Assembly: GCF_056746865.1 (NCBI RefSeq)
Contig: NZ_CM163382.1
Reading direction: 5' to 3' (one strand)
DNA length: 64,000 nt
Position numbers: made by a program. Below, piece after piece: positions 53,101 through 56,100 of this stretch. Each line of letters starts with the position of its first letter. The stretch's first letter is position 1.

Positions 53101-56100
53101 CCGTAATCCGCTCCGCAAAGGGATATATTTTTTTAACCCTCTGACGATCGAGCCAGAAAACCGCATGCGCATGAAAACCATGATCAGCCGTCCATTCAAT
53201 CACCCAGAAGAAACCAACGATATTTTCAAATTGTTCCACCTGCTCCAGCAGCATACGCAACTGCAATTCAAGCCAGCGATGATCAGGTTGTAAGAAATCA
53301 GGCGTATCTTTCCTGTAGAAGAAATCCATGCGTAAGGCCCGCAGACGGGAATAGCGTGCGACCAACTGATTGATGTGATTGTCAAGTAAAGCGGTAAAAA
53401 ACCAGTTTGGTGTGTAAGATTTAGGCATGCTGATGACTCCTGAAAGTTAATGACGTTTTAAGTGCTGTAAACGAATTAATGCTTTCGCTCATAATCAGAT
53501 CTAAAACGGTAATAACTTACAGACGGTATTTATCAGGCATGCTGTAACAGAATGGATACGTCGGTTATTAACGACACGTAGCGTTGTGCAGAAATAAATG
53601 GATTATCTGATGGTATTAGCTAAAGAGATGAGATAAACGAGGAGTGAATAAAATACAGAATCAATAAACATCACGAAATACTGCAAAATATGCGATAAAA
53701 ACCCACGATCAGAAGTTCAAGAAACATATTACGACTAATCACCATCATAAATTACAAACTTGCTCTCAATGGTTCTAAAAAACCGTGTACAAGGCCAACA
53801 CGATACCTGTAACCCAATAAACTTACACGCACTCATTTTATCTGTTAAAAACAACTCATGTTCAAGATATGAACGTTAACGGGTACACGGTACCAGAATG
53901 AAACATACCATGGATGGATAATTTTCATTTTATTTAAAATACAAGATAATCAGGAACGAACAAACACAATCAGAAATTCACTCTATTAATTCTGTTATTT
54001 ACCCTGCTCGGCTAATCGTTACAGAATAATGGATACCTTATTAAAGAGTAAGCATTCAGTTAATCAGTGATGACAGAAGTATTGATATTTACCAGAATGG
54101 TTAAAACATATCAGATAAACAATCATTGTTAAGCAAATACAGCTCATGATGGATAAAATTAAAATAAATTATTATTTTACTGAAAACAGGAACAGATGGA
54201 TATCAGCAATAGCGTAGTAGAGAATAACTTATCTGAGTATCATATGAGTTACAGTAGTTATGATTGAGGAATGGAGAAGGTGGATACCATGATAATGGTG
54301 ACAATGAAGATTAGACAAGGAAGGGAGTGAATATAACTGGATGAGAATAAGAGTAATGGAATGTGTAAAGACAGAGAGGGAAAATGAAGGGCAGAGATGG
54401 ATGATAAATAAAGGGGTAGATACTAATTATAGTAATAAACCTAAATTAAAATTATCCATGTTTGATGAGTAAAAATAAGAAATCATCCGTTCTGAATACG
54501 AACATGACAAACCATTATCTTACAGAAAAAATATCAAATCATTTTTCTTCACTCTCCTATTGAAATGCAAACTTGAACAGCATCTCTTTTCAGTAACAGT
54601 GATAACCATTCGTTATTCAGGCAGAGACCGACATTATCATATACACCTACACTCATCACGACGAAAATCAAACGAAGTTATATATGAAAACTCACACAAT
54701 ATGGTTAATGATTAGCTTTAATCTATGTTAAAAATAATCTTTCGATTCACTTTCGATCAATAAAAAACGAAAGCCATGCTTCCACCAGTGCGCACACTCC
54801 TGTATTCAACCAGCTCTGACAGCAGGTCATTATGAAAACAAAATTAAATCACAGATGTGGTGCATGTGCTGCTACTGTTGCTACCGTAGCGGTTTTTTCA
54901 GAGAAATTCTCATTCCCCCCCCATAATTGGTGAACATTTGCATAGGTGCAGGATATGCAAAACGCCTTATCACCAACCTCCGAATGAAGGTTGGTTGATT
55001 TTGTTTTATCTGTGTAAGGTTATTTCAAAATAAGCTATACTCTGAAAAAGGTGACGCAAATGACGGAATTAATTCCGGTGGAATATTAACGTGATATGCT
55101 TTCGCTTTATGAATATTCTCGGGTAGAACAATATCAAACTGTTCGTAATACATTGCGCCTAAAGGAAGGAGGTAACCATTGTTACAATAAACAGAAACAT
55201 AAAGTGCCTGATGCGATCGCATTCTGATGATACATAAATACCCCTGACAGATTAACTGATTGAGTACAGGTGTAAGTTTTTCTGCTCTTCTCAGTCGATT
55301 GGGACCATATCTTTCAATGTCTGTTTTCCTGATAGCACGCCAATTATTCTGCCTTATTCGGGTCATAATCCATGCATACAGTTCACAGGCATCCTGTTCA
55401 AACTGGCATCGTGCAGACATGGGATAAAATATTGTGCTCGCCTCCTCCAGATACCAGTCCATGAGATGCATAGCTTTAAAAAGCGCAATTGATTCAATTT
55501 CCTCAGCATCTTTATAGCAATAGCAGGTGAATATTCCAGCTATCCTCAGTATATTAGAACCTGCTTTCAGAACAATATCTCTGATGTGTTCCCACTCCCC
55601 GCCTGCAAGCGCTTTTCTTTCAATCTTAATCTGGTTTTCCTGCCACTCCCCCAACGCTTTCTTCGCAAGTTTTAATGTCTTCCTTTCGGTGCTCATGCCG
55701 GGGAAATTAATGTTGTGGTTTAACAGGAATCCGTTAATCTTTTTATGAAAGTTCTCCAGGGTTGATATTGTTCTGAACTCACCTCTCGTATAATCACGTA
55801 TCCAGGAAGAACTTACAACCTGACTGAACAGAAACCGGGAAAGAAATCCGCTTCCCCACGCCAGTACGTCATTTTTATTTATATAATTCGTAAAGACATC
55901 CGGCTGAGACATTAACGAAAATGTCAGACGTGGCGCGATATGGTATTTCTCGTCAGCCCGTCCAAAATCAAACGGTTGCCCACTCCATGCTTTATTCAAC
56001 AGGCCCGGATAATTTTTCAGATAGCTTCTGAAAAAAGTGACCGCCTCATCAGAAATAACCCCTGCCTCAGGATGTTCATTGAGCCCTTCCACAAGCGCTT

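What the first reader, a model, noticed from the sequence alone, without database searches (positions are those of the whole stretch)
53429..55024. 1.6-kb ORF-free, purine-skewed AT-rich tract inside the integrative element
No ORF of 60 aa or more on either strand across 1.6 kb, with strong A/G enrichment on the plus strand (long GGA/AGA/ATA-rich runs around 54240-54420). This is unusual for bacterial DNA and lies directly upstream of the YfjI-like P-loop gene. It could be an H-NS-silenced regulatory region, a long non-coding RNA, or decayed sequence.
Basis: seen in the sequence. Interest (0 to 1): 0.5.

Follow-up and report, generated by a model that had tools for sequence, protein, structure and literature searches.

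The report
Non-coding leader of island Rep-like operon
This 1.6-kb stretch of an E. coli genomic island has no conserved protein gene beyond one doubtful 33-codon ORF: it joins the conserved AT-rich upstream region of a replication-protein-like operon to the tail of the neighbouring helicase gene, and is most likely a silencing and transcription-stopping buffer, not a lost gene or a new structured RNA.

Summary
Window 53429-55024 is the largest ORF-free gap in the 64 kb, with 34% GC against 49%. The purine skew is local: 54240-54425 is 73% purine and 5% C.

Both neighbours are on the minus strand, so the tract lies downstream of yfjI (a DUF3987 helicase) and upstream of a yfjJ-like HUH Rep-like gene.

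The tract is a composite of two blocks:
- **Block A (53429-~54478)** stays attached to the yfjJ-like gene in about 1,570 of 5,426 E. coli genomes, next to at least 12 different distal neighbours. It is never annotated and never coding.
  - At the proximal end, a hairpin occludes the ribosome-binding site.
  - The middle is a mosaic spacer with oriented ATGGAT repeats.
  - At the distal end is a hypervariable, C-depleted minisatellite. Read on the minus strand, it is the most rut-like RNA in the window.
- **Block B (~54479-55024)** travels with yfjI. It holds a conserved unannotated 33-codon ORF/hairpin element and an intrinsic terminator.

No intact orthologous gene, Rfam family, DnaA-box cluster or conserved RNA fold was found.

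The best reading is an H-NS/Rho-type silencing leader and insulator for the yfjJ-alpA operon. This is inferred, not shown. An ordinary kind of element; moderate interest.

The parts
52862..53428 (-). yfjJ-like gene (188 aa), an HUH Rep-like protein. It is the first gene of the yfjJ / 190-aa orf / alpA-like excisionase module. Its start codon abuts the tract.
   Evidence: Pfam PF11726 YagK_YfjJ_C and PF23343 REP_ORF2-G2P. H86, H88, Y156 and K159 are invariant across the family, including K-12 YfjJ and YagK. RefSeq names it a YagK/YfjJ domain protein. The downstream HTH gene matches PHROG excisionase/regulator families.
53425..53545 (-). 5' leader hairpin of the yfjJ-like mRNA. It pairs the Shine-Dalgarno GGAG and the AUG with an upstream GCAUGCCUGAU segment.
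   Evidence: MFE -32.4 kcal/mol, z = -4.71, 0 of 200 shuffles fold as well. Consensus fold -23.2 kcal/mol, z = -3.0 against column shuffles. This is the most conserved part of the tract (91-98% pairwise identity). No compensatory changes are available, and a 12-nt deletion in L025/L026 removes one inner arm.
53429..54478 (.). Block A: a non-coding block of about 1.05 kb that always travels with the start of the yfjJ-like gene.
   Evidence: Homologous in 1572 of 5426 E. coli genomes, mostly at 80-85% identity over query positions 3 to about 1026-1050, and never annotated. 81 of the 83 sequences that carried the distal junction block and had enough flank ran through to the yfjJ start. At least 12 different sequences follow the junction.
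53546..54264 (.). Mosaic AT-rich spacer with oriented ATGGAT(A) repeats at 53552, 53598, 53910, 53914, 54029, 54149 and 54196. Further copies lie in the minisatellite (54397) and, inverted, at 54454.
   Evidence: ATGGAT occurs 8 times on the + strand against 0.92 expected; 4 of 1000 shuffles give any 6-mer as extreme. Across 68 alleles there are 4.8 copies per allele on the + strand and none on the - strand within the ~1-kb aligned tract, which ends at 54450. Two deep allele classes differ by about 35% at 53730-54025, while the flanking genes are 95-97% identical. Natural deletions of 358, 206 and 162 nt lie between the direct repeats.
54265..54428 (.). Hypervariable, purine-rich, C-depleted minisatellite. 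It has degenerate RGAGTGARTA units and a 9-bp GGAGAAGGT VNTR. Read on the minus strand, it is C-rich, G-poor, unstructured RNA (a candidate Rho-loading site).
   Evidence: 44 variants in 64 sequences, 67-206 nt long, C 2-6%, G 24-37%. The 9-bp unit has 1 copy here, 3 to 7 in other sequences, and 7.3 perfect copies in L025. The minus-strand RNA has 59 C, 10 G and 48 YC dinucleotides. Its MFE is -0.027 kcal/mol per nt against a window mean of -0.273. It holds the top C/G 78-nt windows of 21,308 scanned.
54429..54478 (.). Junction block ATAGTAATAAACCTAAATTAAA followed by ATTATCCATGTTTGATGAGTAAAAATAA. Homology to other loci ends after this block.
   Evidence: Invariant in the 11 independently chosen E. 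coli alleles. In the metagenome set the invariance is by construction, because this 22-mer was the search pattern. The sequence on the far side falls into at least 12 classes.
54479..55024 (.). Block B: the 3' flank that travels with yfjI. It is present only in loci that carry yfjI.
   Evidence: 332 of 5426 genomes, never annotated. Absent where the distal neighbour is IS256/ireA, a TIR gene, a restriction endonuclease, H-NS or dsdA.
54832..54933 (+). 33-codon ORF (MKTKLNHRCGACAATVATVAVFSEKFSFPPHNW) inside the best-conserved part of block B (about 54775-54935). It could be a small protein gene or an RNA-level element; this is undecided.
   Evidence: Intact and 33 codons long in 20 of 22 alleles, with 9 peptide variants. 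The SD/ATG block 54815-54839 is invariant. 23.5% of ORF sites vary against 48% in the flanks, but variable sites fall 10/7/7 across codon positions. It is absent from a 15-billion-protein collection.
54874..54899 (+). Hairpin followed by a T run, inside the small ORF.
   Evidence: Terminator-like hit. 94-96% pairwise identity across alleles.
54972..55007 (+). Intrinsic terminator hairpin plus a T run, immediately after the yfjI stop codon on the opposite strand. It can serve both directions.
   Evidence: Terminator scan. The stem is kept in all alleles, while the loop CCGAATGA is replaced in allele B by TCATTCGA, which matches its reverse complement (TCATTCGG) at 7 of 8 positions.
55025..56629 (-). 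yfjI, a DUF3987 helicase-like gene. Its stop codon abuts the tract.
   Evidence: Pfam DUF3987, E = 2.8e-73. PHROG DNA helicase, E = 8e-42. A DUF3987 protein was shown to be a 5'-3' helicase (PMC11724360). Alleles differ equally at all three codon positions.

Best explanation
The gap is genuine non-coding DNA made of two pieces with separate histories.

**Block A (53429-~54478)** is the long untranslated upstream region of the minus-strand operon yfjJ-like / 190-aa orf / alpA-like excisionase-regulator. I propose that it works as a silencing buffer with three parts:
1. Its AT-rich body is a substrate for H-NS-type xenogeneic silencing.
2. Its distal end is a C-rich, G-poor, unstructured stretch of nascent RNA. 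This would load Rho and stop transcripts that read in from whatever cargo gene lies upstream.
3. Its proximal end folds into a hairpin that hides the ribosome-binding site and start codon of the yfjJ-like gene.

**Block B (~54479-55024)** is the 3' flank of yfjI. It carries an intrinsic terminator that ends yfjI, and a small convergent conserved unit (a 33-codon ORF with hairpins).

What is shown: the anatomy, the linkage to the yfjJ-like gene, the absence of coding, the composition and the predicted folds.

What is inferred: H-NS occupancy, Rho loading, translational occlusion, and any expression of the small unit.
For: **Non-coding.**
- No ORF is conserved. The one ORF sometimes called (43 aa, 54341-54472) is cut to 7 codons in the other allele class.
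- Indels are not multiples of three.
- No feature is annotated under the match in any E. coli record listed (about 85 rows sampled across the ranking of 1,574 matching records) or in any of the 12 plasmid matches.

**Linkage to the operon.**
- The same roughly 1-kb block precedes the yfjJ-like gene next to YfjI, IS256 plus ireA, a TIR gene, a restriction endonuclease, H-NS and dsdA.
- At least 12 junction classes are seen.
- 81 of 83 informative sequences run uninterrupted from the junction to the yfjJ start.

**Silencing substrate.**
- GC is 34%, and 87% of 100-nt windows are below 40% GC.
- TpA steps occur at 91 per kb against 48 per kb in the rest of the window.
- H-NS motif matches are 2.3- to 4.8-fold denser than in the rest of the window.
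- Some related islands encode their own H-NS paralogue next to the module.

**Rho loading site.**
- The minus-strand RNA of 54240-54430 has 59 C, 10 G and 48 YC dinucleotides.
- Its MFE is -5.2 kcal/mol over 191 nt.
- It holds the highest C/G 78-nt windows of the whole 64 kb on either strand.
- The composition is kept in all 44 length and sequence variants: C 2-6% and G 24-37% on the plus strand.
- Rho anchors to cytidine-rich Rut sites, and with NusG it keeps outside transcripts from invading H-NS-silenced islands (PMC6797219).

**Leader hairpin.** z = -4.7, and it occludes GGAG and AUG. It is the best-conserved segment.

**Terminator.** The hairpin plus T run is kept across alleles even though the loop is inverted.
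Against: - No expression, H-NS or Rho data exist for this locus in the tools available. Every mechanistic step is inference from sequence.
- H-NS motif matches are exactly what the base composition predicts (28 against 28.8), so nothing points to a dedicated nucleation site.
- No convincing conserved sigma-70 promoter for the yfjJ-like gene was found. Promoter-like hits equal the shuffle expectation (8 against 8.6). The candidate nearest the gene is disrupted by a 13-nt deletion in the other allele class. It is therefore unknown whether the C-rich stretch is ever transcribed.
- The constant composition of the minisatellite may simply be inherited from shuffling the same purine-rich repeat units, rather than being selected.
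- Natural variants lack 53558-53915, 53900-54105 or 54195-54356. The last removes most of the minisatellite, so much of the block is dispensable in at least some lineages.
- The second Gp2-family gene has its own 1-kb ORF-free upstream tract, but there the sense RNA is G>C, not C>G. A sense-strand rut is therefore not a general rule.
- K-12 yfjJ and yagK have no such tract.
Confidence: 0.45

Rival explanations
1. Functionless spacer. The tract is neutral, AT-rich filler that hitch-hikes with the yfjJ-like gene. Its repeats come from old duplications and replication slippage, and its mosaic pattern comes from recombination between island copies. It may be bound by H-NS like any AT-rich DNA, but it has no selected role.
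For: - The middle of block A is far more diverged (about 65% identity) than the flanking genes (95-97%), and it has frequent indels.
- ATGGAT sites decay by G-to-A changes. They are only modestly better kept than local background (percentile ranks 0.47-0.94).
- Large internal deletions exist in nature.
- The neighbouring yfjI shows no codon-position bias in its substitutions. In CFT073 the yfjJ-like gene is frameshifted and the tract is cut to 254 bp by an IS3. Parts of this module are therefore decaying.
- No conserved RNA structure, promoter or protein-binding consensus was found.
Against: - Block A is retained full-length in 81 of 83 informative sequences, despite at least 12 different rearrangements immediately beyond it.
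- Conservation is uneven in a way that neutrality does not predict. There are islands of 80-98% identity at 53431-53550 and 53991-54260, and an invariant junction block.
- The strand composition of the minisatellite is the most extreme in 64 kb.
- A second, unrelated 1-kb ORF-free tract with its own oriented repeat sits before the other Gp2-family gene.
Confidence: 0.3
2. Cis-acting DNA site for the island's replication-type proteins. Under this reading, the tract contains an origin, a nick site or a transfer-type site. The site would be used by the HUH Rep-like YfjJ protein, the DUF3987 helicase YfjI, or both. The oriented ATGGAT repeats and the RGAGTGARTA array would be protein-binding repeats. 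This resembles the ori placed just 3' of pri-rep in SaPIs, or the intergenic region upstream of gene II in filamentous phages (these comparisons rest on my own knowledge).
For: - The tract lies exactly between a helicase-like gene and a Rep-like gene.
- The HUH and YxxK motifs are invariant in the family, so the protein may be an active nuclease.
- A DUF3987 protein is a proven 5'-3' helicase of a mobile element (PMC11724360).
- ATGGAT occurs 8 times in one orientation. Each allele has 3-4 RGAGTGARTA units.
- The other Gp2-family gene also has a 1-kb ORF-free tract, with AAAACAC 8 times in one orientation.
Against: - There is no excess of DnaA boxes: 3 one-mismatch hits in 1.6 kb, about the window average.
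- The putative binding repeats are the least conserved part. The array is hypervariable in number, spacing and sequence, and ATGGAT sites decay.
- No conserved hairpin with a candidate nick site was found outside the mRNA leader.
- Block A persists in most loci without yfjI.
- yfjI evolves without codon-position bias.
- K-12 homologues lack the tract.
- There is no similarity to any phage or to any non-Escherichia plasmid.
Confidence: 0.12
3. Trans-acting non-coding RNA from the plus strand. For example, a purine- and GGA-rich RNA that sponges CsrA, or a long regulatory RNA.
For: - Nine GGA triplets lie in 140 nt at 54268-54399.
- A locally stable plus-strand fold exists at 54370-54500, z = -4.4.
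- The plus strand is purine-loaded, as mRNA-sense strands tend to be.
Against: - The GGA count over the tract (20) matches what base composition predicts: about 19, my own arithmetic from the base frequencies.
- The left arm of the 54370-54500 hairpin is absent in the other allele class.
- No promoter or terminator brackets the region on the plus strand.
- Rfam gives no match.
- Consensus folds there have energies of only -1 to -10 kcal/mol.
- The region is hypervariable in length and sequence.
- The UPEC sRNA PapR was checked and is not encoded here.
Confidence: 0.05
4. Recently decayed protein-coding gene or genes.
For: The plus-strand A/G excess is what an old plus-strand coding region would leave behind. 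The island contains many pseudogenes.
Against: - No homologous locus carries an intact or annotated gene.
- No stop-free stretch exceeds 234 nt.
- Indel lengths are not multiples of three.
- All allele classes are equally ORF-free. Any decay would therefore predate their divergence of about 35%.
Confidence: 0.03

Closest known systems
AT-rich, H-NS-silenced DNA of horizontally acquired islands, protected from outside transcripts by Rho/NusG (Salmonella SPIs; PMC6797219)
   Same: It sits in a horizontally acquired island. It is about 15 percentage points lower in GC than its surroundings, untranslated, and placed in front of an operon that would be costly if read through. It has a cytidine-rich stretch of nascent RNA at the edge that faces foreign, variable neighbours.
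   Different: No H-NS, Rho or NusG data exist for this locus. Here the C-rich stretch is a discrete, hypervariable minisatellite, not a diffuse property. In the cited work, H-NS-elicited termination depended little on Rut binding.
Long Rho-attenuated 5' leaders of enterobacterial genes such as mgtA, corA and pgaA (own knowledge, not tested here)
   Same: A leader of several hundred nucleotides without translation, with a C-rich unstructured segment, and with a structure at the ribosome-binding site.
   Different: No transcription start site is known here, so it is not established that the tract is a leader at all. At about 1 kb it would be unusually long. No ligand- or sRNA-responsive element was identified.
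K-12 CP4-57 yfjI-yfjJ junction
   Same: The same gene pair in the same order: a DUF3987 gene followed by a YagK/YfjJ-family gene, in an island with an alpA-type regulator.
   Different: The K-12 spacer is 152 bp and shares no detectable similarity with the tract. The K-12 YfjJ protein is only about 16-20% identical to this one.
Replication origins placed next to rep genes of satellites and filamentous phages: SaPI ori 3' of pri-rep, and the Ff intergenic region 5' of gene II (own knowledge)
   Same: An ORF-free, AT-rich segment with short oriented repeats, between a helicase-type gene and an HUH Rep-type gene.
   Different: The repeats are poorly conserved. There are no DnaA boxes and no conserved nick hairpin. 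No replication has been shown. The block persists without the helicase gene.

Membership tests
H-NS / xenogeneically silenced region | AT content well above that of the host genome, over hundreds of base pairs | tested here: met
   34.3% GC against 48.9% for the window. 87% of 100-nt windows are below 40% GC.
H-NS / xenogeneically silenced region | High-affinity H-NS motif (TCGATAAATT-like) enriched beyond what base composition gives | tested here: not met
   28 matches with up to 3 mismatches, against 28.8 +/- 5.2 in composition-matched shuffles.
H-NS / xenogeneically silenced region | H-NS occupancy, and derepression in hns mutants | not testable with these tools
   No ChIP or expression data for strains that carry the tract. 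K-12 lacks it.
Rho-dependent terminator (rut site) | At least about 80 nt of C-rich, G-poor nascent RNA | tested here: met
   Minus-strand RNA of 54240-54430 has 59 C and 10 G. The best 78-nt window has 27 C and 2 G, the highest ratio among 21,308 windows.
Rho-dependent terminator (rut site) | Little secondary structure, and not translated | tested here: met
   MFE is -0.027 kcal/mol per nt, against -0.273 +/- 0.065 for the window. No ORF is conserved there on the minus strand.
Rho-dependent terminator (rut site) | The region is transcribed in that direction, and termination is sensitive to bicyclomycin | not testable with these tools
   No transcript data. No conserved promoter found.
Iteron-type or rolling-circle replication origin | Arrays of direct repeats conserved in sequence and spacing | tested here: not met
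   Repeats exist: ATGGAT 8 times and RGAGTGARTA 3-4 times. But number, spacing and sequence vary between alleles (44 variants), and sites decay.
Iteron-type or rolling-circle replication origin | DnaA boxes, or a conserved hairpin carrying a nick site | tested here: not met
   Three one-mismatch DnaA boxes in 1.6 kb, about the background rate. No conserved hairpin outside the mRNA leader.
Iteron-type or rolling-circle replication origin | Supports replication or nicking by the cognate Rep protein | not testable with these tools
   Requires experiments.
Described structured RNA family (Rfam 15) | Match to a covariance model | tested here: not met
   No match at E up to 1 over 52500-56000 on either strand.
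CsrB-like CsrA sponge | Excess of GGA motifs presented in hairpin loops, with its own promoter and terminator | tested here: not met
   20 GGA on the plus strand, against about 19 expected from base composition (own arithmetic). No bracketing promoter or terminator. No conserved hairpins.
Pseudogene / decayed coding sequence | An intact homologous gene in related loci, or frame-preserving indels | tested here: not met
   No gene lies under any homologous match. Indels are 1, 2, 4, 13 and 14 nt.
Intrinsic terminator (54972-55007) | G+C-rich hairpin followed by a T run, kept in relatives | tested here: met
   8-bp stem plus TGATTTTGTT. The stem is kept while the loop is inverted between alleles.
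Small protein gene (54832-54933) | Reading frame, start codon and ribosome-binding site kept across diverged alleles | tested here: met
   20 of 22 alleles are intact at 33 codons. The SD/ATG block is invariant.
Small protein gene (54832-54933) | Substitutions concentrated at third codon positions | tested here: not met
   Variable sites fall 10/7/7 at codon positions 1/2/3.

The most novel reading that the evidence does not exclude
Each of the two HUH (Gp2/YagK/YfjJ-family) genes of this island type is preceded by its own non-coding tract of about 1 kb. Each tract carries a private short repeat, dispersed and in a single orientation: ATGGAT 8 times before the 188-aa gene, and AAAACAC 8 times before the 243-aa gene. 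For the yfjJ-like gene there is also a hypervariable minisatellite at the edge that faces a cargo hotspot. These tracts could be an undescribed class of cis-acting DNA partner for domesticated HUH proteins. They might be an origin, a nick site or a recombination platform that governs replication, or cargo exchange between the two HUH genes, in E. coli pathogenicity-island backbones.
Probability: 0.12. Interest if true: 0.6.

Novelty: new member of a known kind. Interest (0 to 1): 0.33.

Why it matters
About 29% of complete E. coli genomes carry this unannotated 1-kb block. That includes pathogenicity islands holding pap, ireA, dsd and resistance cargo. It sits in front of the operon that encodes the island's AlpA-type excisionase-regulator.

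If the block is a silencing and anti-read-through buffer, it helps explain two things. First, how such islands keep their excision and replication genes quiet whatever cargo lands next to them. Second, why cargo is exchanged at one recurrent junction.

The hypervariable minisatellite is also a ready-made typing marker. If none of this holds, the tract is ordinary AT-rich island filler.

Tried and rejected
- **Rfam** over the tract and its flanks, and over the second tract: nothing credible.
- **Tandem Repeats Finder** on the window allele: nothing. The VNTR only became visible in allele L025.
- **Homology between tract 1 and tract 2 or K-12 CP4-57:** none.
- **Relatives outside Escherichia.** The yfjJ-like protein has homologues of 59% identity or less in an E. 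coli strain and in other genera, but none has a comparable long tract: a 197-207-aa ORF or alpA lies about 200-280 bp upstream, except the 39%-identical Budvicia homologue, which has a ~1.3-kb upstream stretch free of 80-aa ORFs that I did not examine. The 86%-identity proteins (L025, L026) turned out to be the same family with one locally scrambled segment, not deeper comparators.
- **Phage and plasmid collections:** no phage match. The plasmid matches are E. coli island fragments, one of them a 320-bp remnant between IS66 and IS256 plus ireA.
- **Small ORFs.** Of 10 candidates, only the 43-aa ORF is ever called, and it is not conserved.
- **PapR sRNA:** no 22-nt complement to papI in any allele.
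- **DnaA boxes:** at background level.
- **CsrA-type GGA enrichment:** at the composition expectation.
- **Sliding-window single-sequence and consensus RNA folding on both strands.** Only the yfjJ leader hairpin has substantial energy. The 54370-54500 hairpin is allele-specific.
- **MITE reading** of the 17-nt inverted repeat 53914-53930 / 54443-54459: rejected, because no allele lacks the enclosed 546 bp, and the left arm is missing in the other allele class.
- **Leader hairpin in tract 2:** not significant, z = -0.97.
- **Literature searches** on yfjJ/yagK and DUF3987 gave nothing about this tract.
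Full report
**Observation.**
- Window 53429-55024 contains no ORF of 60 aa or more on either strand. It is the largest such gap in the 64 kb at both the 60-aa and the 100-aa threshold.
- It has 34.3% GC against 48.9% for the window, with A at 38% and T at 27.8%.
- The purine skew is concentrated. The whole tract is 55.6% purine, but 54240-54425 is 73% purine with only 10 C in 186 nt, and none of 2000 shuffles of the tract reach that.
- The twelve most extreme G>C 100-nt windows of the entire window all lie at 54241-54440.
- Absence of a 60-aa ORF is not itself improbable at this composition: 33% of shuffles also lack one. The unusual thing is 1.6 kb of non-coding DNA.

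**Context.**
- The sequence is E. coli, with many chromosomes 100% identical, and RefSeq annotates nothing under it.
- Both neighbours are on the minus strand:
  - A 188-aa YagK/YfjJ-domain gene (52862-53428) whose start codon abuts the tract.
  - A YfjI-family gene (55025-56629) whose stop codon abuts it.
The tract is 3' of yfjI and 5' of the yfjJ-like gene.
- The yfjJ-like protein hits Pfam YagK_YfjJ_C and REP_ORF2-G2P. It keeps an H-x-H motif and a Y-x-x-K motif that are invariant across the family, including K-12 YfjJ and YagK.
- YfjI is DUF3987 and matches a PHROG DNA-helicase family. A DUF3987 protein has been shown to be a 5'-3' helicase (PMC11724360).
- Downstream of the yfjJ-like gene, on the same strand, lie a 190-aa orf and an AlpA-type excisionase-regulator.

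**The tract is a composite.** I compared the following sets:
- Eight related E. coli chromosomal loci aligned with the window; CFT073, L023 and plasmid L021 were used for context and for the leader alignment.
- Two loci found through YfjJ homologues.
- 99 metagenome contigs found with a 22-mer from the tract.

Block A (53429 to about 54478) is attached to the yfjJ-like gene whatever lies beyond it: YfjI, IS256 plus ireA, a TIR-domain gene, a restriction endonuclease, an H-NS paralogue, dsdA, or IS elements. At least 12 junction classes occur.

1572 of 5426 complete E. coli genomes have a match. Most run at 80-85% identity over query positions 3 to about 1026-1050. Of the 83 sequences with enough flank, 81 run uninterrupted from the junction to the yfjJ start.

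Block B (about 54479-55024) occurs only where yfjI is present, in 332 genomes.

K-12 has the gene pair but only a 152-bp spacer, unrelated in sequence. K-12 yagK has no long tract either.

Protein homologues at 59% identity or less, found in an E. coli strain and in other genera, have no comparable long tract: an ORF or alpA lies within about 200-280 bp upstream, apart from one unexamined ~1.3-kb ORF-poor upstream stretch in Budvicia. There is no match in phage records. Plasmid matches are fragments of E. coli islands.

**Anatomy of block A.**
1. **53425-53545, minus strand: a long imperfect hairpin.**
   - It pairs the Shine-Dalgarno GGAG and the AUG of the yfjJ-like gene with an upstream segment.
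   - MFE is -32.4 kcal/mol, z = -4.7.
   - It is the best-conserved segment at 91-98% pairwise identity, and its consensus fold has z = -3.0.
   - There is too little variation to test covariation. A 12-nt deletion in two sequences removes an inner arm.
2. **53546-54264: a mosaic AT-rich spacer.**
   - Two allele classes differ by about 35% at 53730-54025, with indels of 13, 14 and 4 nt. Yet 53991-54260 stays at 77-89% pairwise identity.
   - The flanking genes are 95-97% identical. The deep alleles therefore reflect recombination of old haplotypes, not a faster clock.
   - ATGGAT occurs 8 times on the plus strand against 0.92 expected. Only 4 of 1000 shuffles give any 6-mer as extreme.
   - Across 68 alleles there are 4.8 copies per allele and none on the other strand within the ~1-kb aligned tract, which ends at 54450.
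   - The sites decay by G-to-A changes and are only modestly better kept than their surroundings.
   - Natural deletions of 358, 206 and 162 nt have end-points at these direct repeats.
3. **54265-54428: a hypervariable minisatellite.**
   - There are 44 variants among 64 sequences, 67-206 nt long. They are built from degenerate RGAGTGARTA-type units and a 9-bp GGAGAAGGT repeat.
   - That repeat has 1 copy here, 3-7 copies in other sequences, and 7.3 perfect copies in L025.
   - The composition is constant: C 2-6%, G 24-37%, purine 71-79%.
4. **54429-54478: a junction block.** It is invariant in the independently sampled genomes. Homology ends after it.

**Anatomy of block B.**
- A hairpin plus T run at 54972-55007 sits right after the yfjI stop codon.
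- Its stem is kept in all alleles, while the loop CCGAATGA is replaced in the other allele class by TCATTCGA, which matches its reverse complement at 7 of 8 positions. That is the signature of a real hairpin.
- The most conserved piece is about 54775-54935. It contains a 33-codon plus-strand ORF (54832-54933) that is intact in 20 of 22 alleles.
- The ORF has an invariant SD/ATG block at 54815-54839 and an internal hairpin plus T run at 54874-54899.
- Sites in the ORF vary half as often as in its flanks. But the variable sites are spread 10/7/7 over codon positions. No gene caller has ever recorded the peptide.
- Whether this is a small protein gene, an sRNA or both remains open. The consensus fold has only one compensatory pair.

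**What it is not.**
- Not a recently decayed gene. No homologous locus has a gene there, indels break frame, and all allele classes are equally ORF-free.
- Not a described RNA family.
- Not PapR.
- Not a CsrB-like sponge. The GGA count (20) equals what composition predicts (about 19, own arithmetic), and there is no bracketing promoter or terminator.
- Not a DnaA-box origin.
- No conserved RNA structure apart from the leader hairpin. The stable 54370-54500 plus-strand hairpin lacks its left arm in the other allele class.

**Most likely mechanism.** Block A is the long untranslated upstream region of the yfjJ / orf / alpA operon, and it acts as a silencing buffer.

The AT-rich body is the kind of DNA that H-NS coats. 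It has 87% of 100-nt windows under 40% GC and twice the TpA density of the rest of the window. Its H-NS motif density is 2.3- to 4.8-fold that of the rest, though no more than composition predicts.

The minisatellite, read on the minus strand in the direction that leads from the cargo into the operon, gives 191 nt of RNA with these properties:
- 59 C, 10 G and 48 YC dinucleotides.
- An MFE of only -5.2 kcal/mol, which is -0.027 per nt against -0.273 +/- 0.065 for the window.
- The highest C/G 78-nt windows of 21,308 scanned on both strands.

These are the textbook properties of a Rho-loading site. Rho anchors to cytidine-rich Rut sites, and Rho with NusG prevents outside transcripts from invading H-NS-silenced islands (PMC6797219).

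Placing such a site at the edge that faces an ever-changing, mostly co-oriented cargo gene would insulate the excisionase-regulator operon from read-through. The proximal hairpin would add translational occlusion.

All three steps are inferred from sequence; none is shown. Points against:
- No conserved promoter was found.
- The constant composition of the minisatellite could be inherited from its repeat units rather than selected.
- Some natural variants delete most of it.
- The other Gp2-family gene's tract has the opposite G/C skew on its sense strand.

**Rivals.**
- The neutral-spacer reading is the main one. It is helped by the fast and mosaic divergence, by the tolerated deletions, and by signs that the module is decaying: yfjI has no codon-position bias, and in CFT073 the yfjJ-like gene is frameshifted and the tract is cut by an IS.
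- The origin or nick-site reading draws on the gene neighbourhood and the oriented repeats. It is weakened by the poor conservation of those repeats, by the lack of DnaA boxes or a conserved hairpin, and by the persistence of block A without yfjI.

**A parallel worth noting.**
- The second Gp2-family gene of the island (57814-58545, 243 aa) also has an ORF-free tract of about 950 bp upstream (58546-59495).
- That tract is conserved and almost never annotated in 1873 of 5426 genomes.
- It is unrelated in sequence to tract 1.
- It has its own heptamer, AAAACAC, 8 times in one orientation against 0.78 expected.
- Two unrelated long non-coding tracts, each with a private oriented repeat, in front of two HUH genes that bracket a cargo hotspot: this is the basis of the more novel reading. 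My evidence does not exclude it.

**Verdict.**
- The tract is an unannotated, widely distributed, composite non-coding region.
- Its best-supported role is ordinary in kind: a silenced leader, insulator and terminator region of a genomic island. Its anatomy had not been described in anything I could find.

Noticed in passing
window 58546-59495: A second ORF-free, A-rich tract lies directly upstream of the 243-aa Gp2-family gene (57814-58545, minus strand). It is conserved and almost never annotated in 1873 of 5426 E. coli genomes, with up to 8 copies per genome. AAAACAC occurs 8 times on the plus strand and never on the minus strand (0.78 expected). It is not homologous to the tract under study.
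   Followed up: partly
window ~59495-60700: An IS5-type element (338-aa ORF at 59529-60545, plus strand) interrupts the second tract. I identified it from the sequence and my own knowledge of IS5; no tool was used.
   Followed up: no
window 54775-54935: An unannotated conserved unit on the plus strand. It has a 33-codon ORF (54832-54933) intact in 20 of 22 alleles, an invariant SD/ATG block and an internal hairpin plus T run. Substitutions do not favour third codon positions, so it may act as RNA rather than as a peptide. It is present in 332 of 5426 genomes.
   Followed up: partly
window 54972-54995, compared with L012/L034: The loop of the terminator hairpin is CCGAATGA in this allele and TCATTCGA (7 of 8 positions of its reverse complement) in the other allele class, with the stem kept. 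This looks like a small inversion across a hairpin.
   Followed up: partly
window ~54478-57813 and related loci L012-L019, L022, L023: The segment between block A and the 243-aa Gp2-family gene is a cargo hotspot. In different strains it holds YfjI, a TIR-domain protein, a restriction endonuclease, an H-NS paralogue, an ATP-dependent nuclease, IS256 plus ireA, or dsdCXA. Several of these look like defence genes.
   Followed up: partly
L025 3100-3165 (homologue of window 54268-54285): A perfect 9-bp VNTR (TCCACCTTC, 7.3 copies) creates a spurious 74-aa ORF with a PPS repeat on the gene strand. Copy number ranges from 0 to 7 across metagenome contigs.
   Followed up: yes
window 55025-56629 (yfjI), compared with L012/L015: yfjI alleles that are 95% identical differ equally at codon positions 1, 2 and 3 (0.955/0.951/0.948). 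This suggests relaxed or absent purifying selection on this helicase-like gene.
   Followed up: no
window 54915-54922: A C8 homopolymer inside the small ORF is specific to this allele. Other alleles read CACACCC, CACCCCCC or CATGCCCC. It is a potential slippage site.
   Followed up: no
window ~8972-14022: ORF sizes and order match the tet(A)-tetR-aph(6)-Id-aph(3'')-Ib-sul2 resistance cluster annotated next to the same module in strain H9Ecoli (L001). I did not verify this in the window itself.
   Followed up: no
L013 1-230, L019 4487-4702: Some islands that carry the module encode their own H-NS-family protein close to it.
   Followed up: no
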